Part shown: in pieces, positions 18,074-52,539 of the stretch
Position numbering within the stretch: position 1 is the first letter of the stretch
Layout: each line of letters starts with the position of its first letter
NCBI GenBank assembly: GCA_044432785.1
Contig: JAWXUK010000001.1
Location: 145-64,144, forward strand
Source of the DNA: Eubacteriales bacterium
GTDB taxonomy: Bacteria > Bacillota > Clostridia > Oscillospirales > Oscillospiraceae
DNA: 64,000 bases
Direction of reading: 5' to 3'
Position numbers and translations under genes: made by a program
Notes under the pieces: model-generated
Databases searched by the model: none
Told to the model about the DNA's origin: nothing
Seen by the model: only the letters and a program-made list of their open reading frames with translations

Positions 18074-18357
18074 ACAAGATTCCATGACGTTAAAAACACA
18101 ATAGCATGACGCTCCCATAAATCAAAAGCATAATAACATGACATGACGAACAGAATCAAGACACAACCAGAAAAAACGGTTCAAATAGTTGCAGAAATAG
18201 CCATTTTCGTCCATTCTGAACCAAAATATTTCGCTTCCATTCTAAAACAGAATAACATGACATTCCAACAATTCAAACCCACAAAAACATGACAACACCA
18301 GACAATCAAAATGACAATTCCATGACAGCTACGCTCCAAAAACAAGATAAGATGACG
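18074..18357 (+). repeat. Iteron-like array, candidate replication origin
   Basis: Seven CATGAC motifs, all in the same orientation (18083, 18105, 18137, 18142, 18256, 18288, 18321), plus AATGAC (18310) and GATGAC (18351). The array is bounded by the 17-mers AACAAGATTCCATGACG and AACAAGATAAGATGACG, which differ at 3 positions. It is AT-rich, non-coding, and directly upstream of rep. Confidence 0.5.
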
Positions 18358-18576
18358 CAATTTTCAAAGATATGTTAAAACAGTTAAATTTTAGCCATTT
18401 TCTCTATTTTATCGATTCAATCGTGATATTTTATTGCAAATATCGAAAATCCACCCTCTCTTGACGGAGGGTTTTTTTTATGTTTTAATTAAAATATTAA
18501 GTTGCGTGTACAGAAACGTACAACTTTTCGCCCTCCCCCACCAAGGGTATAGGGACTTTTTGTAAAGGAGAATGAC

Positions 18577-30711: not shown

Positions 30712-30835
30712 GCTAACACTCCTAAACTCTGTTTGTTTAAATTGTAACACAAAGTTCGCCAGTAAGTCAAGTCTAATCCCACTCCATTTGTCCTTGAGGT
30801 TGAGGTTTGGTGAGGGGTGAGTTCAAACTCAACAT

Positions 30836-30867
30836 AAAACGGAGCAGACCGAAGACTGCTCCGTTTT
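30836..30867. terminator. Hairpin AAAACGGAGCAG-N8-CTGCTCCGTTTT
   Basis: A 12-bp stem flanked by A and T runs, homologous in position to the terminator at 11620-11646 next to the DUF819 3' end. Confidence 0.5.
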
Positions 30868-30885
30868 ATTTGAATATGACTGCAA

Positions 30886-31348: not shown

Positions 31349-32152
31349 ATGAATCTGATAGACTTGAAAGAAATCGAGCAGTTTTGTGCTGACCTTGCCA
31401 TTAAGGCGGGCGAGAAAATCATGGAGGTCTACGATGACCCCAATTTGTTCTCTCAAACAGAGGTCAAAGGGGATAAAAGTCCATTGACCCTTGCGGATAA
31501 GCGAGCAAATGACCTGATTGTGGCAGGATTAAAGAAAAAATTTCCTGATTTCGCCATTCTGTCCGAGGAAGAAAAAGACGACCTAAGCAGACGGGAGAAT
31601 CCCTTCTGCTTTATTGTCGACCCCTTAGATGGTACCAAAGAATTTATCAAAAGAAACGGACAATTTACCGTCAATATCGCTCTTGCCGAGCACCAAAAGG
31701 TGATCATGGGTGTGATCTACGTCCCTGCTACTGGAGATTTATACTATGCTTCCAAGGAAAACGGAAGTTTTTACAAGAGTCCACAGGGAGAGGTCGCTCA
31801 AAACAAGGTTTCTACCCAAGTGGGGTTAAGAGAGCCTAGCAAAATCCGTCTTGTGATGAGTGCTTCCCATGGAGCGCCTGAAATGGATGCACTGATCGAA
31901 AAATATAACTTCACCAATTTTGTGAAAATGGGCAGTTCCCTCAAGGGTTGCCTTGTGGCACGAGGGGAAGCTGAAATTTATTATCGCCACGGTCCTACCT
32001 GTGAGTGGGACACAGCTGCCATGCAATGTATTGTGGAAGAGGCAGGTGGAGTATTCCGTCAGATGGATGGGAGCGAGATGGTCTATAATCGGGAGAATAC
32101 CCGAAATGAAAAAGGTTTTTTTGCAATAAATTCGAAAGAAAATCAATTATAA
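31349..32152 (+). CDS. 3'(2'),5'-bisphosphate nucleotidase (CysQ / inositol monophosphatase family)
   Basis: ILSEEE, VDPLDGTKEF and WDTAA motifs of the IMPase/CysQ fold. RBS GGGGAGGAG. Confidence 0.8.
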   Translation: MNLIDLKEIEQFCADLAIKAGEKIMEVYDDPNLFSQTEVKGDKSPLTLADKRANDLIVAGLKKKFPDFAILSEEEKDDLSRRENPFCFIVDPLDGTKEFIKRNGQFTVNIALAEHQKVIMGVIYVPATGDLYYASKENGSFYKSPQGEVAQNKVSTQVGLREPSKIRLVMSASHGAPEMDALIEKYNFTNFVKMGSSLKGCLVARGEAEIYYRHGPTCEWDTAAMQCIVEEAGGVFRQMDGSEMVYNRENTRNEKGFFAINSKENQL

Positions 32153-32165: not shown

Positions 32166-34490
32166 ATGATAACGATACAACCCTCTATCTCGGATATCCC
32201 CTCTAAAAAATCAGTGGTAATTATTTGGGGGACGAGTGCACAGGCAATCAAATTAGTGCGTTTTTTCAAAGAATATCATTTCGAAGTACACGCATTTTGT
32301 AATAATGACCCCGAAAAATGGGGCGAAACTTTCATCGGCTTTCCGATCATTTCACCTAGCGAACTGGAAGATCTAACCAAGGAATCTGGCTTTGATGTCA
32401 TAATCCAGCTCTTAGGGGACGAAAAATCCTGCTCCGAGATTGCTGCACAAGTAGAGTCTTTTGCCATTAGCAGAATCCTCTACCCAAATGATGCGTGGGA
32501 TTTTTGCGAAACTTTCGTACAAGAGAAACAGCAACTATCAAAACAAAACGAAGAAACATTAGAAGAGAGGTTGCGAGCTCTTTCTCACGCAAGGGATGTG
32601 GACCTGTGCACCCAATTAGAAGAGGGATTTTATCTACCCTATCAAGCGCAATTCTCAGCTAATTTTGATAAAAACAAATCCCTTTTAGTGCAATATCCTT
32701 ATTTATTTCAAAAGGAAATGATCGCTCCTAGTGAAACAGAGTTTTCTGTTTTTCCAGTAAATGAAGAGAAAATTTACTGTTACCACAAAATGAATGGTAA
32801 TTACATCTTACTCGAAACCTATTCAGAGCACGAAACTAAGCATTTTTTTGAAAATTTAGATGATCCGATTTTCGTTTCGAATGAATTTAACGAATTTAAT
32901 CTAAAGTTCTTGGTAGATAACGTAAGAGCGAGCGAATTAGTTGCCCAGGATAACCATATATATCTCCAGTATGACAATATGGAAGAATTTTCTTTTCTAT
33001 TGTACTATGTCGATTTTGAGCCACTGCTAAAAGATGAAAAAATTGTTTTCCTAATTGGGGAAGAAGAACGAAATCTCTGTCCCATCAATTTCAAAGAAAA
33101 ATTCAACATTGATTATGATTCCATGGAAGTGCAAGAAGTACAACCTCCTGAAATCAAACGAATTACGGTACAATTGCATCTAAGCCCATTTTCGGGCAAT
33201 GCACTTATGAACGAGATCTTGGATGGTCATTCTGCAATCTTGAGCGCAAATGGGGGATTCTCAAAATTTGGCTTTTATAATTTTGATGAAAAAAATAATA
33301 TCCTTCCATTTGAATCTTTTCTAAATGATATGAAAAGAAATATCGATGCAAAGAATATCCCGCAATTAGAGCTCATCTGCTGTCATCTAAAGCTACCTAA
33401 ACATACACATATGGAACCAAGTGTCGAGACAAAGTTAGAAGCCGCTACCGTTTTTTGGGGGCATCTAGTGGCATTGAACGAAGAGTTCCCGGTTTCTACA
33501 CTGAAAGATTGGATTGTTTCATTGTATATCGCTTACGTGAGAACAAGGGAACTACAACTACCTTCTCGAATAGCACCTATGATTCATCACTTTGAGCACG
33601 ATGTCAGAGCTGCGCCCTATCATTATTCTCAGCTGCGCTTGATGTATGATGATTTCGACTACACCTACTACTATTTTCCCATGAGGGACTTGTTTCCACG
33701 AAAATTATCTGGTGTAATGTTCACCGACAATGATTTTCGTAAACTACTAGACGTAGTTGCTAGCACAGCGGAGCTCGAAACCAACCTGAAAAACTGCATT
33801 GGAACTTGGTTCGCAGTAATGGGACCCTTATTGATAGAGTACAATAATGTCCCCTTAACCCCTAGAACACTGCAAGCAATTCGATTTGAAGATCTAAAAC
33901 TCAACCCAAAAGCGACCCTAACCGCTATTTGCCGTCAATTCAATATCCCGTATAGCGATATCCTTCAGCTTTGCACGAAAAATCACAAGGGTTACGAATT
34001 CTACAACCCCACTCTCACTGAAGCCGCCAAAACAGGATTTCATATCATGCCACTCTACAGAGAAGGTTACGACTATCTCTCTCTTGAGGAGAGAAAATTT
34101 TACGAATCGGTCTTTGGATCAACGATCACCCCATATGAATATACGAGAGAGTATACCAAGGAAAATGATCCGATGATTTCCCTTGAGGAGCGATACAACC
34201 AACCCTTTGCGTTTGAGCAAAAACTCGTGGAGCGTCTAGCCCAATATAGTAGCCAGGACTTCACGGATGAAATCGAGAAGAATAGGCGCATTATGATAGA
34301 TAACCTAGTGAAGAACAGTGCTATGCAGAGCAAATATTCCGTAACATTGCTACGGCCAGTCCCTGAATTGCTGGTCCATGAGTTATATCAAAACCAGTCT
34401 TCTCTACCAAAACTTGAGGATCTTGATGTGACATTTTTAGATGCACCACTTCTCTCTACAAAACAAGAAAAGAGGGACTGTGATGAATAA
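32166..34490 (+). CDS. Large multidomain protein (774 aa): N-terminal Rossmann-like module plus a C-terminal region with sulfotransferase-like motifs. Candidate phosphoramidate (or sulfo) transferase.
   Basis: N-terminus VVIIWGTSAQAIKLV...FCNNDPEKWGETFIGFPIISPSEL. LSPFSGNALM (about 33180-33210) resembles a 5'-phosphosulfate-binding loop. RFEDLKLNPKATLTAICRQFNIPY (about 33882-33960) resembles the YEDL...FLGL tail of sulfotransferases. It overlaps the next gene by 8 nt. Confidence 0.4.
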   Translation: MITIQPSISDIPSKKSVVIIWGTSAQAIKLVRFFKEYHFEVHAFCNNDPEKWGETFIGFPIISPSELEDLTKESGFDVIIQLLGDEKSCSEIAAQVESFAISRILYPNDAWDFCETFVQEKQQLSKQNEETLEERLRALSHARDVDLCTQLEEGFYLPYQAQFSANFDKNKSLLVQYPYLFQKEMIAPSETEFSVFPVNEEKIYCYHKMNGNYILLETYSEHETKHFFENLDDPIFVSNEFNEFNLKFLVDNVRASELVAQDNHIYLQYDNMEEFSFLLYYVDFEPLLKDEKIVFLIGEEERNLCPINFKEKFNIDYDSMEVQEVQPPEIKRITVQLHLSPFSGNALMNEILDGHSAILSANGGFSKFGFYNFDEKNNILPFESFLNDMKRNIDAKNIPQLELICCHLKLPKHTHMEPSVETKLEAATVFWGHLVALNEEFPVSTLKDWIVSLYIAYVRTRELQLPSRIAPMIHHFEHDVRAAPYHYSQLRLMYDDFDYTYYYFPMRDLFPRKLSGVMFTDNDFRKLLDVVASTAELETNLKNCIGTWFAVMGPLLIEYNNVPLTPRTLQAIRFEDLKLNPKATLTAICRQFNIPYSDILQLCTKNHKGYEFYNPTLTEAAKTGFHIMPLYREGYDYLSLEERKFYESVFGSTITPYEYTREYTKENDPMISLEERYNQPFAFEQKLVERLAQYSSQDFTDEIEKNRRIMIDNLVKNSAMQSKYSVTLLRPVPELLVHELYQNQSSLPKLEDLDVTFLDAPLLSTKQEKRDCDE

Positions 34491-34983
34491 AGTTTACTGG
34501 ATTACGGGACTCTCTGGTTCTGGAAAAACAACCATCGGCAGAGCATTACAGGCTGAACTACAAAGGGAAAATCAAACAGTCATATTTTTAGATGGCGATG
34601 AGATGCGCCCCCTCCTCTGCCCTGACCTAGGATATACAGAGGAGGATCGTAGAATTTGCGCCTTACGCTATGCAGGGCTGTGTAAATTACTCCATGACCA
34701 AAATTTCACCGTCATTTGCTGTACAATCTCCATGTTTCATCAGGTAAGGGATTGGAATCGAGAGAATATCGACCGTTATTTTGAGATTTATATCAAAGTA
34801 AATGAGAATACTCTGGAGCAGCGAGATCAAAAAGGGATGTATTCCCAGAAAACCCAAAATATGACTGGAAAAGATATTCTAGCAGAATTTCCACGCAATC
34901 CTGATTGCACAGTGGTTAACGACCACGGTAATATAGAAGAAATTATCAATCAAATTTTACATGTAGAAGAGGACACAAAATGA
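34483..34983 (+). CDS. APS-kinase-fold P-loop kinase. In this context it is Cj1415-like (cytidine diphosphoramidate 3'-kinase) rather than CysC.
   Basis: VYWITGLSGSGKTTIG, FLDGDEMR, and the fold-typical length of 166 aa. The start was moved to ATG 34483. Confidence 0.75.
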   Translation: MNKVYWITGLSGSGKTTIGRALQAELQRENQTVIFLDGDEMRPLLCPDLGYTEEDRRICALRYAGLCKLLHDQNFTVICCTISMFHQVRDWNRENIDRYFEIYIKVNENTLEQRDQKGMYSQKTQNMTGKDILAEFPRNPDCTVVNDHGNIEEIINQILHVEEDTK

Positions 34984-35762
34984 GTAGTAACTTAAAACTA
35001 GGCGATTTCACACAAATGGCAAAATACTATAAGAACAGACCTACCTATTCTTTAGAAGCACTGAAGCTAATTTCTGGCTATATCGAAAATTCTATGAATC
35101 AAAGCATTGAAAAAGTCGCTGATATAGGTGCTGGAACAGGAAAACTGACAGAAAATCTAAGCCAACTTGGTTTTTCGGGATTAGCTGTTGAACCTAATGA
35201 TGCAATGCGTGAAGAGGGAATGAAAAACGAATTATGCGAAAGATTTTCCTTTCAAAAGGGCGCCGCTGAGGAAACCGGACTGGACGAAAATTTTGCGCAG
35301 TGGGTGTTGATGGGAAGTTCTTTTCACTGGACGCAGCACAAGGATGCATTAAAAGAGTTCCATCGCATTCTAACCCCAGGTGGCTTTTTCACCGCTATCT
35401 GGAATCCTCGAGATATCGAGAAAAGTCCGCTACACACAACAATTGAATCAAAAATACACGAAATCGCGCCTAATATTGTTCGAGTATCATCAGGCTCATC
35501 CAACAATTTGAAGGATGTAGAAGAAAAGTTGTTATCAACAAATTATTTCAGTGATTTATTCTTTGTAGAAGTTCCTTTCGAACTAGAAATGAGCAAGCAA
35601 CGCTATATCGACACCTGGAAATCAGTAAATGATATTCAAGTGCAAGCAGGCGAAGAAAAATTCAAGGAAATTCTTGCCATGATCGAAACAGAGATTAGCG
35701 GCATGGATTCTGTTCTCGTTCCTTACAAAGCAAGAGCATGGACCGTTAGAAGTACAAAATAA
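34980..35762 (+). CDS. Class I SAM-dependent methyltransferase
   Basis: Motif I VADIGAGTGKLT. ATGA overlap with the upstream kinase. Confidence 0.8.
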   Translation: MSSNLKLGDFTQMAKYYKNRPTYSLEALKLISGYIENSMNQSIEKVADIGAGTGKLTENLSQLGFSGLAVEPNDAMREEGMKNELCERFSFQKGAAEETGLDENFAQWVLMGSSFHWTQHKDALKEFHRILTPGGFFTAIWNPRDIEKSPLHTTIESKIHEIAPNIVRVSSGSSNNLKDVEEKLLSTNYFSDLFFVEVPFELEMSKQRYIDTWKSVNDIQVQAGEEKFKEILAMIETEISGMDSVLVPYKARAWTVRSTK

Positions 35763-35778
35763 ATTTATAGGTGGCGCC

Positions 35779-38118
35779 ATGAAAAAGCTTCATTTTTCCA
35801 CAAAAGCAGAGACATTACAGCGGTTAGAGGGGAAACTCTCTACCGCTCAGGTCTTGCCTCAATATTCCTTTACGGTTGAAGAATACACGAAAAATCCCGA
35901 GAAAATCTCCCATGAGTTGCAAGATTCCATCAAAAACTGGGGGAATCCATCTGTCATTGTGCGATCTTCTGCGTTATCGGAAGATGGAATCACACAATCC
36001 AATGCAGGAAAATACCTCTCCATTGCAAATGTGCGTGGAGAGGATTCTTTGCTTCGTTCCATTCAAGAGGTCATTGCGTCGTATGATCCAGACCCACAAA
36101 ATCAGGTTCTTGTTCAACCCATGTTGGAAAAGATCCAAGGGTCTGGCGTCATATTTTCGGTAGATCCACAAAATTCAAGCCCTTACTTCGTCATAAATTA
36201 CGATGACACCACAGGTTCAACCGATTCCGTCACATCTGGACAAGGGAAAAACCTGAAAACCTGCTATTTATACCACGGGAAAGACTCCGACCACCCAATC
36301 ATTTCAAAATGCAAGGCGACCACCGAGGAACTGATGGTTTGTTTCGAGACAAATTACATTGATTTAGAATTTGCAATTTCAAATAATACCTTTTATGTTC
36401 TTCAGGTGCGACCTTTGATTGTTCGCACGCAAATAAGCTCGACAAATTCAAAAAGTGATGCCAAAGAACTAGAGCAAATTCACACCTATATCAGCAACGC
36501 AATGAAGAAAAATCCCTATTTGTACGGTGATTCCACCATTTTCGGTGTCATGCCGGACTGGAATCCTGCTGAAATCATCGGCATCCGTCCAAAAGCACTT
36601 GCAACTTCTCTGTACAAATATCTCGTCACAGATGGGGTGTGGGCATATCAGCGAGACAATTATGGCTATAAAAATTTGCGTTCCTTCCCTCTGATGATTG
36701 ATTTTTGTGGACTTCCCTACATAGATACACGGGTTAGTTTCAACTCATTTATTCCAAAAAATATCGACCATGACCTCAGTGATAAGTTAACCAATTATTA
36801 TCTCAGGAAACTCGAAGAAAATCCAACCGAACAAGATAAAGTTGAATTTAATATCATTTTATCGTGTTTCACCTTTGATATTGAAAAAAGACTGGAGATT
36901 TTGAAGAAAAACGGCTTCACTGATAGCGAATGTTCCAGCATCAAAGAAGCTCTCCTCGAACTCACAAACCATATCAGTCACGCAGATGATGGTCTGTGGA
37001 AAAAAGATATGAAAAAAATCGAGCAACTGGAAGAGCGTTTAGAGATCATTTCTAGCAGTGATTTGAGCACATTAGATAAAATTTATTGGCTGTTAGAGGA
37101 CTGTTCTCGCTACGGAACCTTACCATTTGCAGGACTTGCTCGGGTCGGTTTTATCGCTGTGTTGTTGCTAAAATCTATGGTAACCGAAAATTTATTGTCT
37201 CAGGAAAATTACGAACAATTTATGGGGAGTTTGAATACTGTAAGTTCGCAGATGTCGGAAGATTATACAGGGCTATCATCGGAACATTTTCTCGAAAAAT
37301 ACGGACATTTACGCCCTGGAACCTATGATATTTTATCCCCTCGATATGATATGGCACCAAAATTGTACTTCTCTGCTCCGCAATCAGAGAAGCCGAAAGA
37401 ATCCCGAAAAGAGCAGGAAGAATTCAAGCTATCTCTGCAACAATACCAGCAAATTCAAACGCTCATGACCGAGCAGGGCTTCGATCAAGACGTGTTATCC
37501 CTCTTCCAGTTCATTAAAGTTGGTATCGAACAACGGGAATATTCTAAATTTATTTTCAGCAAAAGCCTGTCGCTATCACTAGAACTGGTTGCAAAACTAG
37601 GAGAGGAATACGGATTTTCCCGTGAGGACATGGCATTCTTTGATATCATGAAAATCAAAGAGCTCTACTCTAAATCAGCCGATATTACGCAAGAAATCAA
37701 AGATTCCATCCTAAAAGGGAAGGTTCGATACCAAGAATCCCTTAAAATCACCCTCCCTCCTGTGATCACTCACCCAAATGAGGTTTATGAATTTCATCTC
37801 TCTGAAGCAACACCGAACTATATCACCCAAAAAACCACCACAGGAGCAGTCCTTGCAAATGATCTCAACAGCAACACAATTCCTGGAAAAATTCTTTTAA
37901 TTCCGTCTGCAGACCCTGGCTTTGACTGGATTTTCGCTCAACCGATTTTAGGATTTGTCACGGCATATGGAGGCGCAAATTCGCATATGGCAATCCGTGC
38001 AAATGAACTGGGGATTCCTGCTGTCATTGGGGTCGGGCAACAACTTTTTGAGGGGTTGCAAGAATGTTCTTTGTTGCAGATCGACTGTTCCAATAAGAAA
38101 ATGGAGATTTTGTCATGA
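35779..38118 (+). CDS. PEP-utilising-enzyme-family kinase (ATP-grasp domain plus swivelling phosphohistidine domain, no PEP/pyruvate TIM barrel). Cj1418-like L-glutamine kinase candidate.
   Basis: 779 aa. N-terminal PPDK_N-like region (VIVRSSALSEDG). C-terminal YGGANSHMAIRANELGIPAV with the His736 codon at 37984-37986. The protein ends 43 residues after that His. Confidence 0.7.
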   Translation: MKKLHFSTKAETLQRLEGKLSTAQVLPQYSFTVEEYTKNPEKISHELQDSIKNWGNPSVIVRSSALSEDGITQSNAGKYLSIANVRGEDSLLRSIQEVIASYDPDPQNQVLVQPMLEKIQGSGVIFSVDPQNSSPYFVINYDDTTGSTDSVTSGQGKNLKTCYLYHGKDSDHPIISKCKATTEELMVCFETNYIDLEFAISNNTFYVLQVRPLIVRTQISSTNSKSDAKELEQIHTYISNAMKKNPYLYGDSTIFGVMPDWNPAEIIGIRPKALATSLYKYLVTDGVWAYQRDNYGYKNLRSFPLMIDFCGLPYIDTRVSFNSFIPKNIDHDLSDKLTNYYLRKLEENPTEQDKVEFNIILSCFTFDIEKRLEILKKNGFTDSECSSIKEALLELTNHISHADDGLWKKDMKKIEQLEERLEIISSSDLSTLDKIYWLLEDCSRYGTLPFAGLARVGFIAVLLLKSMVTENLLSQENYEQFMGSLNTVSSQMSEDYTGLSSEHFLEKYGHLRPGTYDILSPRYDMAPKLYFSAPQSEKPKESRKEQEEFKLSLQQYQQIQTLMTEQGFDQDVLSLFQFIKVGIEQREYSKFIFSKSLSLSLELVAKLGEEYGFSREDMAFFDIMKIKELYSKSADITQEIKDSILKGKVRYQESLKITLPPVITHPNEVYEFHLSEATPNYITQKTTTGAVLANDLNSNTIPGKILLIPSADPGFDWIFAQPILGFVTAYGGANSHMAIRANELGIPAVIGVGQQLFEGLQECSLLQIDCSNKKMEILS

Positions 38119-38726
38119 AAAAGAAGAAAATAGTCCTGTCTCAAAGGGTTGATGTGATTGAAAGTTACGGAGAAACTAGAGATTCCCTCGACCAAAATTG
38201 GACAGAATTTATCGTGTCATTGGGAATGATCCCGTTTCCAACACCGAATTTTCCCGATAGTTTATCGGATTATTTAGAAGTCATCCAACCGGACGGCATC
38301 CTCCTCACAGGGGGAAGTGGCCCTGTGAGCTATGGCGGAAATTCCGTAAAACGTGACAAAACCGATGATATGCTCCTTGCATATGCGATTGGAAATAAGA
38401 TACCACTTATGGGAGTTTGTCGTGGAATGCAGTCTTTAGGATGCTTTTTCGGTGGAGTTTTAGAAGAAATTTCCAACCATATTGCGACAAATCACCCCAT
38501 TTCAGGGAAAATCACTCGATCCGTGAATAGTTATCACGGTTGGGGATTTCGGCAATTAGACGATAACATATTTGAAATTTTAGCAACCAGTTCCGACGGA
38601 ATGATCGAGGGCATCTGCCACAGAGAGCATGATTTCGTCGGGATCATGTGGCATCCAGAGCGAGTTTCCCCTTTTTCAGAGGAAGATATTGCTCTTTTCC
38701 AAAAAACATTTCAGAAAGAAGGTTAA
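38115..38726 (+). CDS. Class I glutamine amidotransferase / peptidase C26 hydrolase. Cj1417-like gamma-glutamyl-CDP-amidate hydrolase candidate.
   Basis: Nucleophile elbow GVCRGMQ and catalytic MWHPER. ATGA overlap with the upstream gene. Confidence 0.75.
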   Translation: MKKKKIVLSQRVDVIESYGETRDSLDQNWTEFIVSLGMIPFPTPNFPDSLSDYLEVIQPDGILLTGGSGPVSYGGNSVKRDKTDDMLLAYAIGNKIPLMGVCRGMQSLGCFFGGVLEEISNHIATNHPISGKITRSVNSYHGWGFRQLDDNIFEILATSSDGMIEGICHREHDFVGIMWHPERVSPFSEEDIALFQKTFQKEG

Positions 38727-38729
38727 CTT

Positions 38730-39458
38730 ATGAAAATTATTATTTTAGCAGCAGGTCGTGGAAGTCGTATGGGAGATAGCACCGAAATTTTACCCAAAGG
38801 AATGGTCTCCATTTATGGAAAACCAATTTTGCAACATTGTCTCGATACCCTGGAAAAAGCTGGTATTAATCGAGAGGATATAGCCATTGTCACTGGATAC
38901 CATAAAGAAAAAATCGATTTTTCTGGGGTTACCTACTTCCATAACGAAAATTGGGCGAATACGAATATGTTTATGTCGCTGATGGAAACAAAAAGTTGGT
39001 TGCAACAAGAGCCCTGCATCATGTGCTACTCCGATATTTTATTTAGTGCAGAGCCCATCTTGAAATTGATCAAAAGTACCGCAGATTTCGCCATGACCTC
39101 TTATACCGGTTTTTGGGAACTATGGGAAAAACGTTTCCCAAATCCACTCGAAGATTTAGAAACTTTCATCATAAAGGAAGGGAAATTAACCGAAATTGGT
39201 CAAAAACCTTCGGATAAATCTCAAATCATGGGGCAATATATGGGGCTTCTCCGCATTTCACCAAATGGTTGGGATATCATAGAAAAAGCAGTGAAATTAC
39301 CCATGCCAAAGCCAGTAGAAAAATTGGATATGACCACGTTGCTACAGCATTTATTGACCTTAAAGAATGAAATTGAAGTGATAAATTGTGATGATTTGTG
39401 GCTGGAATGCGATAATGAAGAAGATGTGCGTGTTTATGAGGCGAATTATCAGTTTTGA
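38730..39458 (+). CDS. LicC-like nucleotidyltransferase. Cj1416-like CTP:phosphoglutamine cytidylyltransferase candidate.
   Basis: MKIIILAAGRGSRMG...LPKGMV N-terminal NTP-transferase signature. Starts 3 nt after the upstream stop. Confidence 0.75.
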   Translation: MKIIILAAGRGSRMGDSTEILPKGMVSIYGKPILQHCLDTLEKAGINREDIAIVTGYHKEKIDFSGVTYFHNENWANTNMFMSLMETKSWLQQEPCIMCYSDILFSAEPILKLIKSTADFAMTSYTGFWELWEKRFPNPLEDLETFIIKEGKLTEIGQKPSDKSQIMGQYMGLLRISPNGWDIIEKAVKLPMPKPVEKLDMTTLLQHLLTLKNEIEVINCDDLWLECDNEEDVRVYEANYQF

Positions 39459-39645: not shown

Positions 39646-40704
39646 ATGGGAAACATCATGCAGCAAATCAATGAGGTTTACAGTTTTTTAGAAGATGACC
39701 TGTCTCGTAGAGTTTTCGAGACTAGACTAGAATATAATTTTAGTCGAAAAACTCACAACTTCGGACATCTCATGAAAGAAGAAAATAGAAGTTTCTACTA
39801 TCTCACCGATAAAAATATTTATACAACACCGCTCGCAAGTGGAGAGACTATCATATTTTATGGGTTCACCGGAATGGCTGTTTGGGATTATAATAAAATA
39901 AAAGCTAGAGATCCTCAGTGCAACTTTATTTTTTGTGATCGAAGACACGACGAACTTAAAGATCATCAATTTCTAATTGATAACAATTTAAGAATGATCT
40001 CTCCAGAAGAACTTTTGGGAAATTACAGAGATTGCAAAGTGATCATCAGTATTTCTTCCAAAACAAGGTTTGAAGTGTTTGATTTTTTAAAGGCGAATGG
40101 AGTGCAACAAATTCTATCTGGGAGATTAACCGATGCAATGCAATATTTCGAAGATTTCGTACCAGTCGAAGAAAATGAGATATTCGTTGATGCAGGGGTG
40201 AGAGATGGAGGAACGTCGTTGCAATTTGCGAATTGGTGCGACAATCACTATGAAAAAATATATCTATTTGAGGCCGATCGTACCGTAAAGAATGTCATTG
40301 AAAAGAATATAACATGTTTGCACAACACAGAACTGTATATGAAAGGTCTTTGGAATACCGAGGCTACCCTGTCTTTTCAGCTAGTTGAAAAAACAGGTGG
40401 TTCGCACATCGCAGAAAATGGGACTGAGACAATGGAAGCAGTAGCTCTCGACGATGTGTTGCAAGGCCAGAGAATTACATTTTTGAAGATGGATATTGAG
40501 GGATCAGAACTAAAAGCATTAGAAGGAGCACAAGAAAGCATTAAAAAACATAAACCGAAGTTAGCAATCTCACTCTATCATAAACCAGAGGATATTTTGA
40601 CACTGCCGTTATATATCAAACAATTAGTGCCTGAGTATAAAATTATCTTAAGGCATTATAGTAACGTTATGACAGAAACAGTTTTATATGCTTTTCTAAA
40701 GTAG
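39646..40704 (+). CDS. FkbM-family methyltransferase with the Rossmann-like module in its N-terminal half
   Basis: FVDAGVRDGGTS...FLKMDIEGSELKALEGA...KPKLAISLYH is the FkbM signature. The module is GETIIFYGFTG...FCDRRHDE (about 39841-40110). The start was moved to ATG 39646, which has RBS GAGGT. Confidence 0.8.
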   Translation: MGNIMQQINEVYSFLEDDLSRRVFETRLEYNFSRKTHNFGHLMKEENRSFYYLTDKNIYTTPLASGETIIFYGFTGMAVWDYNKIKARDPQCNFIFCDRRHDELKDHQFLIDNNLRMISPEELLGNYRDCKVIISISSKTRFEVFDFLKANGVQQILSGRLTDAMQYFEDFVPVEENEIFVDAGVRDGGTSLQFANWCDNHYEKIYLFEADRTVKNVIEKNITCLHNTELYMKGLWNTEATLSFQLVEKTGGSHIAENGTETMEAVALDDVLQGQRITFLKMDIEGSELKALEGAQESIKKHKPKLAISLYHKPEDILTLPLYIKQLVPEYKIILRHYSNVMTETVLYAFLK

Positions 40705-40803: not shown

Positions 40804-42699
40804 ATGGATTTTCAAAATCATCACGCCCTCTGCACAAAAGGCGCCGAGCTTGCAAATGAACTCTGCATCGAGCCTCAAACCACCAGTTATTTTATTCTAA
40901 ATCGAGAGATATCCACTTCGCTCTCATCTATCAAGCACTTCGAGGGGTATCGTGCTTACTTCAGCCCAGAAGGTTTTGCGCAGGGTGAAGTGGCGCAGAT
41001 GACTCGCAACCGCAAAATTGTGCGCAAAATTGTGGTTATTTGCCCCGAACGGCTGGCGTTTCTGCCCCGTTTGTGCACCGCTGTGGAGGATACCATTCTC
41101 TGTAGCGATGAGGAGCTCGAATGCCTAGAAGCCTACGCTCGACTGACCCCAAACATTCACAAAAATTTATTTCCTGGGGAACCACTCAATTTAGAGCCCT
41201 ACGCCATCACCTCTAATCGTAGTAACCCCCTAGTTTTTGCAGATTCACTCCCTTGGAATGATCAAACCATTCCTTGTTTTGGGGTGAGTCTTTTTGGAAT
41301 GTCCCTCCAACTTCCCCAAAGCTATATCGAGGAGTATCAGACGGTTTTTGCAGTCCAAGGATATTCTTATGAAAAAGCGAGAAATCTGCTCGCTAACCGT
41401 GGAATTTCCGCGAAAAATATATGGATTCTTGCGACTACAGTGGATTCCCCTGTAATTTTGGAGGAAATGGCGCAAAAATACAATAAAACCTTGTTACGGC
41501 AAGAAGAGATTTCCTGTGACTGGGACGTGGTCTTTGCACTGGTGAAGTTGGGTGCCGTCTTTTTTTGCGACCAGACCGAAATTGTTCAATTTATCGAGGG
41601 ATCTGGTCTCGATTGTCCTTTTAGCCACTGTGATTCTGATTCTTTGTTCGCTTTTGAGCAGGAATATTTGGAAAAACAGGGGTATTTGAGCCGTCGGGAT
41701 GAATACGAAAATCGTGCTCTAGAAAAAACTTTGGCGCAGATAAAACTGGGGGCAGAACTTGCACAAAAACATTGTCCTTATGAAGAAAATAGCATTTATT
41801 TACTGGCAAATCGTCATATTGGAGATGCCTTTTTATTTCTCAAGCGAGTGCGTGGAATCAAAGAGTTTTATGCACCAGAAAACTCCGAAAATTCGGGGGG
41901 ACGTGTGGTGCGCAAAATATATCTCATCACCACGCCATTGCTCGGATCTGTGGGGGCGCTATTCCCTGATTTGGACGGGATCACCACCCTCCCAAGCGCA
42001 GAGGTGCAAGGGCTTCGCACCTTTGTCAGGTCTATCCCCAACCCAAATCCACATATTTTTTCCGATGCCATGCTCTGGGTGGATCATATTGTGGAGGAAA
42101 AGCTCTATGGATTGCATGAAATCTCCCATCAGCTCCCATTTCCACCCAATTATCCGAAAAAATTCCCGAGCTATTCCACTCTTTCTCAAGAGAGTGTGGC
42201 TAAGGCGCAAGCGTGGTTGGACGAGCGAAACTGCACTCCCGAAAAATGTGTAATTATCGCCCCTTATGCCCAAACAAGCAGTTCTTTTTCGCAAAAAGAT
42301 TGCCAAATGCTCATTGATTACTGCAATCAAAAGGGGTATACCATGTTCACCAACTGCTCCCCCACAGAGTCCCCTTTGGACGGAACCGAAAAAATGGTGC
42401 TTCCGTTGGATGTCTGCTGTGGACTTTCCTCGCTCGGTTGTCGCTTTGTCTGTTCTCAGAGTGGTTTTTCCGATATTTTACGCTGGTTAGAGCGTCCAAG
42501 ACTCACCCTTCTCGTGGTAATGCAGTCGATTTTAGAATGTGAAATGGACTGGGCGAGGGAGTGGAAGGTGGATAAACGGGTGTCTCGACTGGATGAGAGC
42601 TTGTTTTTGTACTACGCACCCGAGGATCGTGTTCCACTTGATTTGGAGCTAAAAACGTGGTTTGCGAAACTATTTGAGGAGGGTTTTGATGAATTTTGA
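40804..42699 (+). CDS. Hypothetical protein (631 aa). The C-terminal part is possibly a GT-B / heptosyltransferase-like fold.
   Basis: Long ORF in operon context. VIIAPYAQTSS...LIDYCNQKGYTMFTN...SQSGFSDIL vaguely resembles GT9-type acceptor/donor loops. No firm motif. Confidence 0.4.
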   Translation: MDFQNHHALCTKGAELANELCIEPQTTSYFILNREISTSLSSIKHFEGYRAYFSPEGFAQGEVAQMTRNRKIVRKIVVICPERLAFLPRLCTAVEDTILCSDEELECLEAYARLTPNIHKNLFPGEPLNLEPYAITSNRSNPLVFADSLPWNDQTIPCFGVSLFGMSLQLPQSYIEEYQTVFAVQGYSYEKARNLLANRGISAKNIWILATTVDSPVILEEMAQKYNKTLLRQEEISCDWDVVFALVKLGAVFFCDQTEIVQFIEGSGLDCPFSHCDSDSLFAFEQEYLEKQGYLSRRDEYENRALEKTLAQIKLGAELAQKHCPYEENSIYLLANRHIGDAFLFLKRVRGIKEFYAPENSENSGGRVVRKIYLITTPLLGSVGALFPDLDGITTLPSAEVQGLRTFVRSIPNPNPHIFSDAMLWVDHIVEEKLYGLHEISHQLPFPPNYPKKFPSYSTLSQESVAKAQAWLDERNCTPEKCVIIAPYAQTSSSFSQKDCQMLIDYCNQKGYTMFTNCSPTESPLDGTEKMVLPLDVCCGLSSLGCRFVCSQSGFSDILRWLERPRLTLLVVMQSILECEMDWAREWKVDKRVSRLDESLFLYYAPEDRVPLDLELKTWFAKLFEEGFDEF

Positions 42700-44206
42700 G
42701 TATATTATCGTCCAAGCAGGTGGACTTGGAAGCCGATTAGAGCATTTAACGAAAAATCGTTCCAAGGCGATGGTACCGGTCAACAATGCCCCCATTTTGT
42801 TCCACTTATTTCGAAAGTATCCCAAGAAAAAATTTATCATCATTGGGGACTATAAATTCGAAGAATTTTCCAACTATCTATCCTGTTTTGCCCCTGTGGA
42901 CTATATTTTGATACAATCCATCGAAAAAGGGAACGTATCTGGACTGGATCAATCCCTCGGATATCTGCCCGAACAATCCCCCTTCATGATCATTTGGTCG
43001 GACTTGATTTTATCAGAGGATTTTGAGACAGATTCCCTTAAAAATGGCTGTTATGTTGGGGTTAGTGATCGATTTACTTGTAGTTGGTCCTTTTCAGATG
43101 GAGTTTTAGAGAAAAAATCCACCACCCAAACAGGTGTGGCTGGCTGTTTCCTCTTCGATTGCAAAACAAAACTTCAAAATCTTCCCAAAGGAGGGAGTTT
43201 CACCAAGTATTTGAAGCAAAGTGACCTCGATTTGCAACATTTTTCTATGGAAAGCACCAAAGAAGTGGGCTCGTTAGAGGGCATTTCTGAACTTGAGAAG
43301 GACTATCAACATCGTTGTCGCCCCTATAATTCCATTGAAATGGGGGAAACCCAAGTGGTGAAACGTGGCTTGACACCAGAAGCAAATACCTTGATCGATC
43401 GTGAAATCGTGTGGTTTGATGCTGTGAAAAAGTGTGGTTTTACTGGGATTCCTCAGGTGATATCCCTCGATCCACTGACAACCGAGCGCATTTATGGAGA
43501 GAATCTGTTTTTAACTCCACTTTCTGACCCAGAAAAGAAAGAGACCATCACTAGATTGTGCGAGAAATTGGACAACCTTCATCATTTGCAAACAGGGGAG
43601 GTCAACTATTTCGACCTTCAAAAGGAATATGAGCAGAAAACTTTGGATAGATTGGTGGGAATTGCCCCATCTATTCCTTTTCATCATCAAAAAGAGATCA
43701 AAATCAACGGGAAACTGTGCCGAAATATTTTGATGGATCGAACCTATTTTCGTCATTTGATTGACCGAATTATGGTGCCAAGTGAATTTGGGCTGTTGCA
43801 CGGTGATTGTACCTTCACAAACAGTCTCATCAACGGGGATGGAGACATTTTCTTCATCGATCCTCGTGGATATTTCGGAAATACCCCTTTGATTGGAGAT
43901 GTTTACTATGATTGGGCGAAGATCTATTATTCCATCGTGGGTAGATTTGATCAGTTCAATGTCAAGCGATTTTCCCTCGAAATTGGAGAAAATGAGGTCA
44001 ATTTCTCCATCAATCCCAGTGGTTGGGAGGGTTTTACCGATTATTTCCTCTCCCTCATCCCAAATTGCAACCTCTATCGCTTGAAACTCATTCACGGGAT
44101 TGTCTGGCTCTCTCTGGCAAGTCATTGCTGGGAAGATTTCGACTCGATGTGTCTTGCCTATTATCACGGATTATACTTACTTCATGGACTAGAAGAGGAG
44201 AAATGA
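42689..44206 (+). CDS. Bifunctional nucleotidyltransferase / APH-ChoK-type kinase (505 aa)
   Basis: N-terminus IVQAGGLGSRL...KAMVPV. C-terminus LLHGDCTFTNSLINGDGDIFFIDPRGYFG (Brenner HGD...N and D-x-x-G motifs). ATG 42689 has RBS GAGGAGGG. Confidence 0.7.
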   Translation: MNFEYIIVQAGGLGSRLEHLTKNRSKAMVPVNNAPILFHLFRKYPKKKFIIIGDYKFEEFSNYLSCFAPVDYILIQSIEKGNVSGLDQSLGYLPEQSPFMIIWSDLILSEDFETDSLKNGCYVGVSDRFTCSWSFSDGVLEKKSTTQTGVAGCFLFDCKTKLQNLPKGGSFTKYLKQSDLDLQHFSMESTKEVGSLEGISELEKDYQHRCRPYNSIEMGETQVVKRGLTPEANTLIDREIVWFDAVKKCGFTGIPQVISLDPLTTERIYGENLFLTPLSDPEKKETITRLCEKLDNLHHLQTGEVNYFDLQKEYEQKTLDRLVGIAPSIPFHHQKEIKINGKLCRNILMDRTYFRHLIDRIMVPSEFGLLHGDCTFTNSLINGDGDIFFIDPRGYFGNTPLIGDVYYDWAKIYYSIVGRFDQFNVKRFSLEIGENEVNFSINPSGWEGFTDYFLSLIPNCNLYRLKLIHGIVWLSLASHCWEDFDSMCLAYYHGLYLLHGLEEEK

Positions 44207-51161: not shown

Positions 51162-51201
51162 CGAAATTTCTTATATTATGTGTGAAAGGTGGCAGAAAAA
51201 T

Positions 51202-52500: not shown

Positions 52501-52539
52501 GAATAGATCTATTTTATGTCCGAAAGGGGAGGGTGAGCC

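What the first reader, a model, noticed from the sequence alone, without database searches (positions are those of the whole stretch)
34483..39458. Family-for-family match to the Campylobacter O-methyl-phosphoramidate (MeOPN) donor pathway in a Firmicutes-like glycan locus
Seen in sequence: five tightly coupled ORFs with ATGA or 8-nt overlaps.
- An APS-kinase-fold P-loop kinase (GLSGSGKTT).
- A class I methyltransferase.
- A 779-aa PEP-utilising-family protein with an ATP-grasp region and a swivel-His motif GGANSHMAIRANELG (His736). It has no PEP/pyruvate barrel.
- A C26 amidotransferase-type hydrolase (GVCRGMQ, MWHPER).
- A LicC-like nucleotidyltransferase.

Established knowledge: in C. jejuni the same four enzyme families build the donor.
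- Cj1418 is L-glutamine kinase.
- Cj1416 is CTP:phosphoglutamine cytidylyltransferase.
- Cj1417 is gamma-glutamyl-CDP-amidate hydrolase.
- Cj1415 is cytidine diphosphoramidate 3'-kinase.
- Together they make 3'-phospho-cytidine-5'-diphosphoramidate. Cj1419 and Cj1420 are methyltransferases.

Inference: this locus makes a phosphoramidate donor and installs an N-P (probably O-methylated) group on a cell-surface or flagellar glycan. To my knowledge MeOPN has been characterised chemically only on Campylobacter capsules. A Gram-positive version with a different gene order and extra partners would be new biology.
Basis: partly seen in the sequence, partly recalled or inferred. Interest (0 to 1): 0.85.

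Follow-up and report, generated by a model that had tools for sequence, protein, structure and literature searches.

The report
Phosphoramidate (MeOPN-type) glycan-decoration cassette in a Firmicute
This gut-type Firmicute genome fragment carries the complete enzyme set that Campylobacter uses to make the donor for its rare nitrogen-phosphorus sugar decoration; the set turns out to be widespread but chemically unstudied outside Campylobacter, and here it sits next to a sulfotransferase-like protein that probably attaches the group.

Summary
Window 34483-39458 holds five co-directional, translationally coupled ORFs. They are an APS-kinase-fold kinase, a class I methyltransferase, a 779-aa ATP-grasp plus swivel-His protein with no PEP barrel, a C26 hydrolase and a LicC-like nucleotidyltransferase.

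The MeOPN-donor reading is well supported.
- The 779-aa protein matches NCBIfam NF004508 end to end (953 bits, against 80 bits or less for PEP synthase and rifampicin phosphotransferase models).
- The hydrolase's best model is gamma-glutamyl-CDP-amidate hydrolase.
- Syntenic homologues 39-51% identical carry JGI/IMG names for all four Campylobacter enzymes.
- The five families co-occur within 10 kb in about 85-95% of 87 loci from many phyla.

The novelty claim is overstated. About 600 or more species genomes carry the cassette, including cultured Firmicutes, and a phosphoramide is known on Xanthomonas LOS.

Two additions come from this work. The upstream 774-aa protein has a PAPS-sulfotransferase fold, and related genes flank the cassette in 54 of 84 loci. 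A CysQ gene lies directly before it. Together these suggest a PAPS-like transfer-and-recycling logic.

No direct comparison with C. jejuni sequences was possible, and there is no chemistry.

The parts
31349..32152 (+). CysQ-type 3'(2'),5'-bisphosphate nucleotidase. Inferred role: hydrolysis of the 3',5'-cytidine bisphosphate left after phosphoramidate transfer.
   Evidence: Inositol_P 1.3e-56. TIGR01331 scores 237.8 bits against a cutoff of 228.8. It lies 14 nt upstream of the 774-aa ORF. CysQ homologues lie within 10 kb of the cassette in 9 of 87 loci and in L093.
32166..34490 (+). 774-aa protein with a low-confidence N-terminal Rossmann-like region, a middle domain, and a sulfotransferase-fold domain at about residues 330-690. 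It is the candidate phosphoramidate (MeOPN) transferase.
   Evidence: AF2 model has pLDDT 69 and pTM 0.72. The top 15 Foldseek PDB hits are all PAPS sulfotransferases, with 4gox at 2e-4 and TPST2 at 7e-4. Sub-threshold Sulfotransfer_3 hit, 1.9e-3. hhalign to the cassette-linked family c7 gives 99.9% probability and E 7e-31. The c7 profile hits the CurM sulfotransferase at 8e-19. It overlaps the kinase gene by 8 nt. The same adjacency is seen in L001 and in 8 further loci.
34483..34983 (+). APS-kinase-fold kinase, the predicted cytidine diphosphoramidate 3'-kinase (Cj1415 role).
   Evidence: PF01583 5.9e-33. NF004041/PRK05541 scores 159.5 against a cutoff of 127, while TIGR00455 apsK scores 122.9 against a cutoff of 138.7. 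It is 47-49% identical to JGI-named 'cytidine diphosphoramidate kinase'. It co-occurs with GlnK in 83 of 87 loci and is fused to GlnK in P0080.
34980..35762 (+). Class I SAM methyltransferase, the predicted O-methylation of the phosphoramidate (Cj1419/Cj1420 role).
   Evidence: Methyltransf_11 1.7e-12. A homologue is present in 74 of 87 cassette loci. It is 58% identical to the methyltransferase in the JGI cassette L093.
35779..38118 (+). Predicted L-glutamine kinase (Cj1418 role): ATP-grasp domain plus swivel-His domain, with His736.
   Evidence: NF004508 scores 953.5 bits over 2-778 of 779 residues, cutoff 501. PPDK_N and PEP-utilizers only. It is 50-51% identical to JGI-named 'glutamine kinase' P0084 and P0120. 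His736 and its motif are invariant in 13 diverse homologues.
38115..38726 (+). C26/class I amidotransferase-type hydrolase, the predicted gamma-glutamyl-CDP-amidate hydrolase (Cj1417 role).
   Evidence: The best NCBIfam model is NF045546 at 105 bits, below the equivalog cutoff of 250; the next model scores 41 bits. It is 40-41% identical to JGI-named 'N5-(cytidine 5'-diphosphoramidyl)-L-glutamine hydrolase'. A homologue is present in 77 of 87 loci.
38730..39458 (+). LicC-like nucleotidyltransferase, the predicted CTP:phosphoglutamine cytidylyltransferase (Cj1416 role).
   Evidence: NTP_transf_3 4.1e-16. Best solved relative is LicC 1jyk, 1.6e-11. It is 39-42% identical to JGI-named 'L-glutamine-phosphate cytidylyltransferase'. 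A homologue is present in 79 of 87 loci. A nucleotidyltransferase-like N-terminal region (read by eye from the translation) precedes GlnK in Vibrio alfacsensis pVa1.
39649..40704 (+). FkbM-family methyltransferase. It is an accessory gene of uncertain role, possibly sugar O-methylation.
   Evidence: Methyltransf_21 8.7e-14 and TIGR01444. Homologues are seen near the cassette only in L020 and L093.
40804..42699 (+). 631-aa orphan protein, tentatively with a GT-B / GT9-like glycosyltransferase C-terminal half. It is not part of the conserved cassette.
   Evidence: No Pfam or NCBIfam hit. Only 3 homologues were found. The AF2 model is low confidence, pLDDT 57. Top Foldseek hits are GT9 heptosyltransferases, 3tov at 3e-4 and WaaC.
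42662..44206 (+). Fusion of a nucleotidyltransferase with an APH-type kinase. It is probably a sugar-1-kinase/NDP-sugar pyrophosphorylase and belongs to the glycan-locus context.
   Evidence: NTP_transferase 9.3e-6 and APH 1.2e-3.

Best explanation
The five ORFs are a horizontally widespread 'phosphoramidate-donor cassette', equivalent to C. jejuni Cj1415-Cj1420.

Proposed steps:
1. The 779-aa enzyme uses ATP and its swivel His736 to phosphorylate the amide N of L-glutamine.
2. The LicC-like enzyme joins the product to CTP, giving CDP-L-glutamine.
3. The C26 hydrolase removes glutamate, leaving cytidine diphosphoramidate.
4. The APS-kinase-fold enzyme phosphorylates the 3'-OH. This gives 3'-phospho-cytidine-5'-diphosphoramidate, a structural analogue of PAPS.
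5. The class I methyltransferase supplies the O-methyl group. Its timing is unknown.
6. The adjacent 774-aa protein, whose catalytic half has a PAPS-sulfotransferase fold, transfers the (methyl)phosphoramidate to a hydroxyl of a cell-envelope glycan. That glycan is built by the downstream genes: TarI/TarJ-like, GT2 x4, GT8 and UDP-glucose dehydrogenase.
7. The CysQ encoded directly upstream hydrolyses the by-product 3',5'-cytidine bisphosphate.

What is shown here: family membership, motif conservation, tight coupling, cross-phylum co-occurrence, gene fusions, and the sulfotransferase fold of the 774-aa protein.

What is inferred: every substrate and product (by transfer from the C. jejuni enzymology), the transferase role of the 774-aa protein, the CysQ role, the methylation, and the acceptor.
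For: - GlnK: NF004508 scores 953 bits end to end, against 80 or less for PEP synthase, PigC and RPH models. There is no PEP barrel. His736 is invariant.
- Hydrolase: the best model by a wide margin is gamma-glutamyl-CDP-amidate hydrolase.
- Kinase: it belongs to the PRK05541 subfamily and scores below the canonical apsK cutoff.
- Names: JGI/IMG gives all four pathway enzyme names to syntenic homologues in L093 and L094. The window proteins are 39-51% identical to these over full length.
- Co-occurrence within 10 kb of GlnK in 87 loci: kinase 83, NTase 79, hydrolase 77, MT 74. The genes are nearly always co-directional.
- Gene fusions: kinase-GlnK in P0080, and a nucleotidyltransferase-like region fused to GlnK in Vibrio.
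- The same five families lie in an Azospirillum plasmid polysaccharide locus.
- No ATP sulfurylase was found among the window ORFs scanned.
- 774-aa protein: sulfotransferase fold. It is homologous to family c7, which matches the CurM, OLS and TPST sulfotransferases by sequence profile. Sulfotransferase-like genes flank the cassette in 54 of 84 loci, and 50 of the 52 such genome-scan loci also carry the kinase.
- CysQ passes the TIGR01331 cutoff and abuts the 774-aa gene.
Against: - No C. jejuni protein sequence could be obtained, so similarity to Cj1415-Cj1422 was never measured directly.
- The hydrolase scores below the NF045546 equivalog cutoff (105 against 250).
- The 774-aa protein's Pfam sulfotransferase hit is sub-threshold. 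Its P-loop-like motif (SPFSGNA) lacks the Arg/Lys found in sulfotransferases and in family c7. Foldseek E-values are modest (2e-4) and TM-scores are about 0.4-0.5.
- Two tandem homologues of the 774-aa protein in a Bacillota MAG have no cassette within 10 kb.
- 30 of 84 loci have no detected sulfotransferase-like neighbour.
- CysQ is linked in only about 10% of loci.
- There is no chemical evidence for N-P groups in any Firmicute.
Confidence: 0.75

Rival explanations
1. PAPS-type sulfation system. The APS-kinase-fold enzyme makes PAPS, the 774-aa sulfotransferase-fold protein sulfates the glycan, and CysQ removes pAp. The GlnK, hydrolase and NTase genes would serve another purpose.
For: APS_kinase Pfam hit. 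Sulfotransferase fold of the 774-aa protein. A bona fide CysQ. In Vibrio alfacsensis pVa1, cysDN lie next to a GlnK homologue.
Against: No sulfate adenylyltransferase or PAPS reductase was found among the window ORFs scanned. The kinase is below the canonical apsK cutoff and falls in a separate subfamily. It accompanies GlnK in 83 of 87 loci and is physically fused to GlnK in P0080. The catalytic Arg/Lys of the 5'-PSB loop is missing in the 774-aa family.
Confidence: 0.05
2. The cassette makes a CDP-activated amino-acid or phosphodiester donor (for example CDP-glutamine used directly), as in C. difficile type A flagellin modification. The final decoration would then be a phospho-amino acid, not a phosphoramidate.
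For: CDP-amino-acid donors used by phosphotransferases now exist in Firmicutes (bioRxiv 10.64898/2026.02.12.704994). Some cassette loci lack the kinase and carry TagF-like CDP-glycerol glycerophosphotransferase family genes: the Defluviitaleaceae flagellin locus and Vibrio.
Against: The C26 hydrolase is conserved and translationally coupled to GlnK here (ATGA overlap), and it best matches the CDP-amidate hydrolase model. A 3'-kinase has no role in a CDP-amino-acid phosphotransferase route.
Confidence: 0.08
3. The donor is made as proposed, but the acceptor is not an envelope glycan. It could be a small-molecule natural product, a lipid or a protein. Alternatively, the transferase is another gene and the 774-aa protein has an unrelated role.
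For: The transferase assignment rests on fold and adjacency only. Homologues of the 774-aa protein occur without a nearby cassette. 30 of 84 loci lack a detected sulfotransferase-like neighbour.
Against: The cassette is embedded in a long co-directional array of sugar-nucleotide and glycosyltransferase genes. The same embedding in polysaccharide loci is seen in the Azospirillum and Vibrio plasmids. The 774-aa gene overlaps the kinase gene by 8 nt.
Confidence: 0.1
4. The 779-aa protein is an ordinary PEP synthase, PPDK or antibiotic (rifampicin) phosphotransferase, and the gene neighbourhood is coincidental.
For: It shares the PPDK_N and swivel domains. The best solved relatives are rifampicin phosphotransferases deposited as 'phosphoenolpyruvate synthase' (5fbs, 5hv1), at only 7.5e-9.
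Against: 953 bits to NF004508 against 45 bits to RIF phosphotransferase and 80 or less to PEP synthase models. No PEP-binding barrel. Cassette co-occurrence is conserved across phyla.
Confidence: 0.01

Closest known systems
Campylobacter jejuni NCTC 11168 MeOPN pathway: Cj1418 L-glutamine kinase, Cj1416 CTP:phosphoglutamine cytidylyltransferase, Cj1417 gamma-glutamyl-CDP-amidate hydrolase, Cj1415 CDP-amidate 3'-kinase, Cj1419/Cj1420 methyltransferases, Cj1421/Cj1422 MeOPN transferases
   Same: The same four donor-enzyme families plus a class I methyltransferase are present. The GlnK-hydrolase-NTase run is the same (C. jejuni transcription order from my own knowledge). The cassette is embedded in a surface-polysaccharide locus. 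A large protein of unassigned family sits immediately upstream, in the position the transferases occupy in C. jejuni.
   Different: The host is a Clostridia-class MAG ('Eubacteriales bacterium') and possibly a plasmid-like replicon. The kinase sits at the 5' end of the cassette rather than the 3' end. There is one class I methyltransferase plus an FkbM methyltransferase instead of two class I methyltransferases. CysQ is linked. The candidate transferase is sulfotransferase-fold; whether Cj1421/Cj1422 share that fold could not be tested. No poly-G phase-variation tract lies in the cassette or the 774-aa gene.
PAPS economy: ATP sulfurylase, APS kinase CysC, PAPS sulfotransferases, CysQ
   Same: A kinase of the same fold creates a 3'-phospho-nucleoside-5'-diphospho-X donor. 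A sulfotransferase-fold protein and a CysQ phosphatase are encoded alongside it.
   Different: The nucleotide is expected to be cytidine and the transferred group phosphoramidate, not sulfate. No sulfurylase is present. The 5'-PSB catalytic Arg/Lys is absent in the 774-aa family.
C. difficile type A flagellin modification (CDP-threonine; FtaC methyltransferase, FtaD phosphotransferase) and LicC/LicD phosphocholine decoration
   Same: In Firmicutes, a LicC-type cytidylyltransferase activates a small phospho-compound as a CDP-X donor that decorates a surface glycan. A SAM methyltransferase acts within the pathway.
   Different: Those systems transfer a phosphodiester-linked alcohol or amino acid from CDP-X. 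They have no glutamine kinase, no C26 hydrolase and no 3'-kinase.
Predicted MeOPN clusters in Borg extrachromosomal elements (bioRxiv 10.1101/2024.11.05.622173)
   Same: That work is also a purely in-silico recognition of Cj1416-1418-like genes in a glycan-rich region, next to PEP-mutase/phosphonate genes. This window likewise has a PEP-mutase fusion, at 9513-11522.
   Different: The host there is archaeal. No kinase or sulfotransferase-like partner is described.

Membership tests
L-glutamine kinase (Cj1418 type, EC 2.7.3.13) | Domain architecture: N-terminal ATP-grasp (PPDK_N) plus C-terminal swivel phosphohistidine domain, with no PEP/pyruvate-binding barrel | tested here: met
   Pfam finds PPDK_N at residues 40-132 and PEP-utilizers at 702-772 only.
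L-glutamine kinase (Cj1418 type, EC 2.7.3.13) | Full-length match to the family model, well separated from PEP synthase, PPDK and rifampicin phosphotransferase | tested here: met
   NF004508 scores 953.5 bits (cutoff 501) over residues 2-778. PEP synthase models score 80 or less, and RIF phosphotransferase 45. That NF004508 contains Cj1418 itself is my recollection and was not verified here.
L-glutamine kinase (Cj1418 type, EC 2.7.3.13) | Conserved catalytic swivel histidine | tested here: met
   His736 in GGANSHMAIRA is invariant in 13 homologues down to 32% identity. The equivalence to His737 of Cj1418 is from memory.
L-glutamine kinase (Cj1418 type, EC 2.7.3.13) | Direct or reciprocal similarity to Cj1418, and ATP-dependent N-phosphorylation of L-Gln | not testable with these tools
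   No Cj1418 sequence is in the PDB. The Raushel papers are not held. The genome scan kept only the best 80 loci, none from Campylobacter. Proxy: 50-51% identity to JGI-named 'glutamine kinase'.
gamma-glutamyl-CDP-amidate hydrolase (Cj1417 type) | Match to the curated equivalog model NF045546 above its cutoff | tested here: not met
   105.1 bits against a cutoff of 250. It is nevertheless the top model, with the next at 41 bits. So this is a divergent relative, not an equivalog by NCBI's criterion.
gamma-glutamyl-CDP-amidate hydrolase (Cj1417 type) | Class I amidotransferase/C26 fold with nucleophile Cys and His (GVCRGMQ ... MWHPE), and genomic coupling to GlnK | tested here: met
   Peptidase_C26 and GATase hits. 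Motifs are present in the translation. ATGA overlap with the GlnK gene. A homologue is present in 77 of 87 loci. 40-41% identity to the JGI-named hydrolase.
CTP:phosphoglutamine cytidylyltransferase (Cj1416 type) | LicC/MobA-like nucleotidyltransferase fold with the N-terminal GxGxR signature, encoded with GlnK and the hydrolase | tested here: met
   NTP_transf_3 4.1e-16. LicC 1jyk 1.6e-11. LAAGRGSRMG is present in the translation. A homologue is present in 79 of 87 loci. 39-42% identity to the JGI-named enzyme. Substrate specificity was not tested.
cytidine diphosphoramidate 3'-kinase (Cj1415 type) | APS-kinase fold, but a distinct subfamily from canonical CysC, linked to GlnK rather than to ATP sulfurylase | tested here: met
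   PF01583 hit. PRK05541 scores 159.5 against a cutoff of 127, while TIGR00455 scores 122.9 against a cutoff of 138.7. Present in 83 of 87 loci. Fused to GlnK in P0080. No sulfurylase was found among the window ORFs scanned. Nucleotide specificity was not tested.
PAPS-dependent sulfotransferase superfamily (for the 774-aa protein) | Sulfotransferase alpha/beta fold | tested here: met
   Foldseek ranks 1-15 are all sulfotransferases with probability about 1.0 and E 2e-4 to 9e-3. There is a homology chain to CurM, OLS and TPST through family c7.
PAPS-dependent sulfotransferase superfamily (for the 774-aa protein) | Pfam model above the gathering score, and a conserved 5'-PSB loop with catalytic Lys/Arg | tested here: not met
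   Sulfotransfer_3 scores 18.9 bits against a cutoff of 27. The loop reads SPFSGNA with no conserved basic residue across the family, whereas c7 has GRSGS. The RDP...S and RFEDLK motifs are kept.
MeOPN transferases Cj1421/Cj1422 | Sequence or fold similarity to Cj1421/Cj1422 | not testable with these tools
   No sequences or structures were available. The library holds no paper linking these enzymes to a fold.

The most novel reading that the evidence does not exclude
Phosphoramidate (MeOPN-type) decoration is not a Campylobacter curiosity. It would be a widespread surface chemistry run on a PAPS-like logic. A dedicated, so far unnamed branch of the sulfotransferase superfamily would use 3'-phospho-CDP-amidate to phosphoramidylate envelope glycans. 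This branch comprises the 774-aa family (about 2,100 representatives) and its relative c7. A linked CysQ would recycle the 3',5'-cytidine bisphosphate by-product. This Firmicute would then display N-P groups on a Gram-positive wall polymer, alongside C-P (phosphonate) groups encoded 25 kb away.
Probability: 0.4. Interest if true: 0.7.

Novelty: new member of a known kind. Interest (0 to 1): 0.5.

Why it matters
MeOPN is a phage receptor, serum-resistance factor and vaccine epitope in C. jejuni. A 2022 review from the field still calls the glutamine kinase 'C. jejuni-specific' (PMC9561416). Finding the intact cassette in a gut-type Firmicute, and in about 600 or more other species including culturable Anaerotruncus, Paenibacillus and Butyrivibrio, suggests that N-P decorated glycans are an overlooked feature of many microbiome and soil bacteria.

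The transfer and methylation steps remained uncharacterised even in C. jejuni as of 2025 (PMC12409886). The sulfotransferase-fold neighbour and the linked CysQ give a concrete, testable hypothesis for how the group is delivered and how the by-product is cleared.

Tried and rejected
1. Direct BLAST or reciprocal-best-hit comparison against Cj1415-Cj1422 was not possible.
- No such chains were found in the PDB by sequence.
- The four Raushel-lab papers are not held.
- The single genome-contig scan returned only the 80 closest relatives, none from Campylobacter.
- A search for 'PRK05849' in the literature found nothing.

2. The exact 779-aa product is not on record. The organism was identified instead through the 774-aa and 631-aa proteins, which are 100% identical to NCBI MAG 'Eubacteriales bacterium' locus tags R3Y07_00140 and R3Y07_00175.

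3. The hypothesis that the 631-aa protein is a paralogue of the 774-aa protein, as with Cj1421/Cj1422, was rejected. There is no similarity, and the model, though poor, points to a GT9-like fold.

4. Family c10 (about 340 aa, in Acidobacteriota-type loci) and Nitrospina P0141 look sulfotransferase-like by motif (RHPLDS and RDPRD). This could not be shown by hhalign or PDB search, so it is left open.

5. The flagellin-glycosylation reading was rejected for this window because no flagellin was found among the ORFs scanned. It does apply to a Defluviitaleaceae relative.

6. Promoter and terminator scans gave nothing above shuffled background for promoters.

7. Literature searches for MeOPN outside Campylobacter returned only the Borg preprint and Campylobacter or Helicobacter papers.

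Full report
**1. The observation**

- A 166-aa P-loop kinase at 34483-34983. An in-frame ATG at 34441 is less likely. The 34483 start has a good RBS and gives the 166-aa length called in the public Logan contig.
- A 260-aa methyltransferase at 34980-35762.
- A 779-aa protein at 35779-38118.
- A 203-aa C26-type hydrolase at 38115-38726.
- A 242-aa nucleotidyltransferase at 38730-39458.

Two junctions are ATGA overlaps. The 8-nt overlap is with the upstream 774-aa ORF, which ends at 34490.

All quoted motifs are present, and the swivel His is residue 736. Pfam confirms every family. It also confirms that the 779-aa protein has PPDK_N plus the mobile His domain but no PEP barrel.

**2. What the five genes are**

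NCBIfam places the proteins as follows.
- The 779-aa protein falls end to end in NF004508/PRK05849, with 953.5 bits against a cutoff of 501. PEP synthase, prodigiosin ligase and rifamycin phosphotransferase models score 80 bits or less.
- The hydrolase's best model by far is NF045546, gamma-glutamyl-CDP-amidate hydrolase. It scores 105 bits with the runner-up at 41, but this is below the equivalog cutoff of 250.
- The kinase passes the PRK05541 subfamily cutoff (159.5 against 127). It fails the canonical apsK equivalog cutoff (122.9 against 138.7).

The PDB holds no C. jejuni counterparts. The nearest solved relatives are generic: APS kinases, PuuD-like C26 enzymes, LicC and rifampicin phosphotransferases.

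**3. Relatives and context elsewhere**

The 779-aa family is very large. At least 7,537 90%-identity clusters have E of 1e-10 or better among the 8,000 candidates scored. The 50-56% identical members come from Bacillus cereus and B. wiedmannii, Paenibacillus, Clostridium homopropionicum, Treponema, Prevotellaceae, Nitrospina and Coxiellaceae. JGI names some of them 'glutamine kinase'.

The 80 best come from Firmicutes, Proteobacteria, Acidobacteriota, Planctomycetota and others. The Firmicutes include Anaerotruncus colihominis DSM 17241, Paenibacillus, Cohnella, Butyrivibrio, Lachnospiraceae, Oscillospiraceae and Epulopiscium.

I ran tblastn of the window proteins against all fetched loci. Of 87 loci with a GlnK homologue, the numbers with a partner within 10 kb were:

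| Partner | Loci (of 87) |
|---|---|
| APS-kinase-like gene | 83 |
| Nucleotidyltransferase | 79 |
| C26 hydrolase | 77 |
| Class I methyltransferase | 74 |

These genes are almost always co-directional. The window's order, kinase-MT-GlnK-hydrolase-NTase, recurs in 16 of 80 loci, and GlnK-hydrolase-NTase is the dominant core.

Gene fusions add Rosetta-stone evidence. P0080 is a kinase-GlnK fusion. In Vibrio alfacsensis pVa1, GlnK carries an N-terminal extension that looks nucleotidyltransferase-like by eye.

In two syntenic cassettes (L093, a JGI metagenome, and L094, Nitrospina) JGI/IMG names the neighbours as follows:
- 'cytidine diphosphoramidate kinase'
- 'N5-(cytidine 5'-diphosphoramidyl)-L-glutamine hydrolase'
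- 'L-glutamine-phosphate cytidylyltransferase'

The window proteins are 47-49%, 40-41% and 39-42% identical to these over full length. GlnK is 50-51% identical to its named counterparts, and the methyltransferase is 58% identical to the one in L093.

An Azospirillum plasmid carries the same five families in a polysaccharide locus under generic PGAP names.

**4. The surroundings in the window**

The window matches an NCBI MAG labelled 'Eubacteriales bacterium', through proteins 100% identical to locus tags R3Y07_00140 and R3Y07_00175.

Pfam scans of the main ORFs found no ATP sulfurylase, PAPS reductase or flagellin.

The cassette sits in a + strand array of roughly 30 kb, in this order:
- CysQ (31349-32152)
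- the 774-aa protein
- the cassette
- an FkbM methyltransferase
- a 631-aa orphan protein
- an NTase-kinase fusion
- a ribulose-phosphate epimerase family protein
- TarI/TarJ-like CDP-alditol genes
- a radical SAM protein
- four tandem GT2 genes
- a GT8 gene
- UDP-glucose dehydrogenase and an epimerase

This is a wall or capsular polysaccharide (or teichoic-type) locus, not a flagellar island. A Defluviitaleaceae relative does place GlnK-hydrolase-NTase beside a flagellin gene, with a TagF-like gene and no kinase.

**5. The candidate transferase and the PAPS analogy**

The 774-aa protein upstream overlaps the kinase gene by 8 nt. The same pairing is present in the 70%-identity relative L001 and in eight other Firmicute loci.

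Its AlphaFold model has pLDDT 69 and pTM 0.72, with a good core and a poor N-terminal 143 residues. The model retrieves only PAPS sulfotransferases as its top 15 PDB matches: OLS and CurM sulfotransferase domains, TPST1 and TPST2, and Stf9.

Clustering all ORFs of the 84 loci revealed a second cassette-linked family, c7, in 22 loci.
- c7 is homologous to the 774-aa family (hhalign 99.9%, E 7e-31).
- By sequence profile alone, c7 matches the CurM sulfotransferase at 8e-19, OLS at 2e-14 and TPST1 at 4e-10.

Three shared motifs are visible in both families:
- G(R)SGS...LDGHP
- RDPxxxxS
- RFEDLKxNP

The 774-aa family has lost the basic residue of the first motif.

With HMMs of c7, the 774-aa family and a third family (c10), 54 of 84 loci carry such a gene within 10 kb. 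Of the 52 such loci among the 80 genome-scan loci, 50 also have the kinase. The 774-aa family has about 2,100 representatives at 50% clustering. One member is auto-named 'Sulfotransferase domain-containing protein' by UniRef, and another is from cultured Acutalibacter muris.

The C. jejuni kinase product, 3'-phospho-cytidine-5'-diphosphoramidate, is a PAPS look-alike (established enzymology, cited in PMC6429109). A sulfotransferase-fold transferase and a CysQ to clear 3',5'-cytidine bisphosphate therefore form a coherent mechanistic picture. This part is inference.

**6. What remains unshown**
- I could not obtain any Cj1415-Cj1422 sequence. The link to C. jejuni therefore rests on curated models, KO-derived JGI names and pathway logic.
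- The hydrolase is sub-cutoff for its equivalog model.
- The sulfotransferase assignment is fold-level only. Tandem homologues of the 774-aa protein occur without a nearby cassette in another MAG.
- The 631-aa protein is only tentatively GT9-like.
- No chemistry exists for any non-Campylobacter cassette in the searched literature.
- A Borg preprint made a similar in-silico call.
- An unmethylated phosphoramide is known on X. campestris LOS.

**7. Verdict**

The finding is real and the functional reading is very probably right. I put 0.75 on a phosphoramidate-donor cassette that decorates an envelope glycan.

It is a new member of a known pathway rather than new biology in itself. The cassette is common, and automated annotation already recognises it. 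The more interesting yield is twofold. First, the breadth of the cassette contradicts the 'C. jejuni-specific' view. Second, there is a testable hypothesis that sulfotransferase-fold proteins and CysQ complete a PAPS-like phosphoramidyl-transfer cycle.

Noticed in passing
window 7281-11522 (- strand): Phosphonate-biosynthesis module, so the window encodes C-P chemistry about 25 kb from the N-P cassette. It comprises a 669-aa fusion of two nucleotidyltransferase domains with PEP mutase (9513-11522), a TPP-dependent decarboxylase (7281-8387, Ppd-like) and an Fe-alcohol dehydrogenase (8384-9508).
   Followed up: partly
window 20140-26687 (possibly to 28378): Complete Wadjet anti-plasmid system: JetA (20140-21525), JetB/DUF4194 (21432-22175), JetC SMC-like 1111 aa (22129-25464) and JetD (25347-26687). 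A 542-aa ORF without a family follows.
   Followed up: partly
window 14720-19776: Plasmid-type maintenance genes: ParB (14720-15745, -), ParA (15811-16896, -) and a RepA_N initiator (18577-19776, +). The best tblastn matches of the initiator are on about 500-kb plasmids of Monoglobus pectinilyticus and Pusillibacter faecalis. The glycan locus may therefore lie on a megaplasmid or secondary replicon that itself carries Wadjet.
   Followed up: partly
window 49872-55190; G8 tract at 53593-53600: Four tandem paralogous GT2 glycosyltransferases of about 440 aa. One of them (52540-53862) contains a G8 homopolymer, a possible phase-variation tract. No such tract lies in the cassette or the 774-aa gene.
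   Followed up: no
L002/L013 (Defluviitaleaceae MAG) 4040-13648: Here GlnK-hydrolase-NTase lies directly downstream of a 775-aa flagellin, a GT2 and a TagF-like (Glyphos_transf) gene, with no APS-kinase-like gene. This may be a kinase-less variant that uses CDP-amidate directly on a flagellin glycan.
   Followed up: no
P0080; L011:8326-11334 (Vibrio alfacsensis pVa1): Natural fusions. P0080 joins an APS-kinase-like domain to GlnK (972 aa). In Vibrio a region that looks nucleotidyltransferase-like by eye is joined to GlnK (1002 aa), and this gene lies next to cysDN and a CDP-glycerol glycerophosphotransferase family gene.
   Followed up: partly
L008 10001-13810 (Bacillota MAG GCA_044425835.1): Two tandem paralogues (639 and 624 aa) of the 774-aa sulfotransferase-fold family have no donor cassette within 10 kb. 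This arrangement is reminiscent of tandem Cj1421/Cj1422, and it is also a caveat for strict coupling.
   Followed up: no
window 29104-30750 (- strand): A 548-aa AlgX-like SGNH protein (a putative polysaccharide O-acetyltransferase). It shares an N-terminal Rossmann-like segment with the 774-aa protein (E 1e-4).
   Followed up: no
window 30834-30869: A strong 14-bp-stem hairpin followed by a T-run on the - strand. It separates the AlgX-like gene from the CysQ/cassette array.
   Followed up: no
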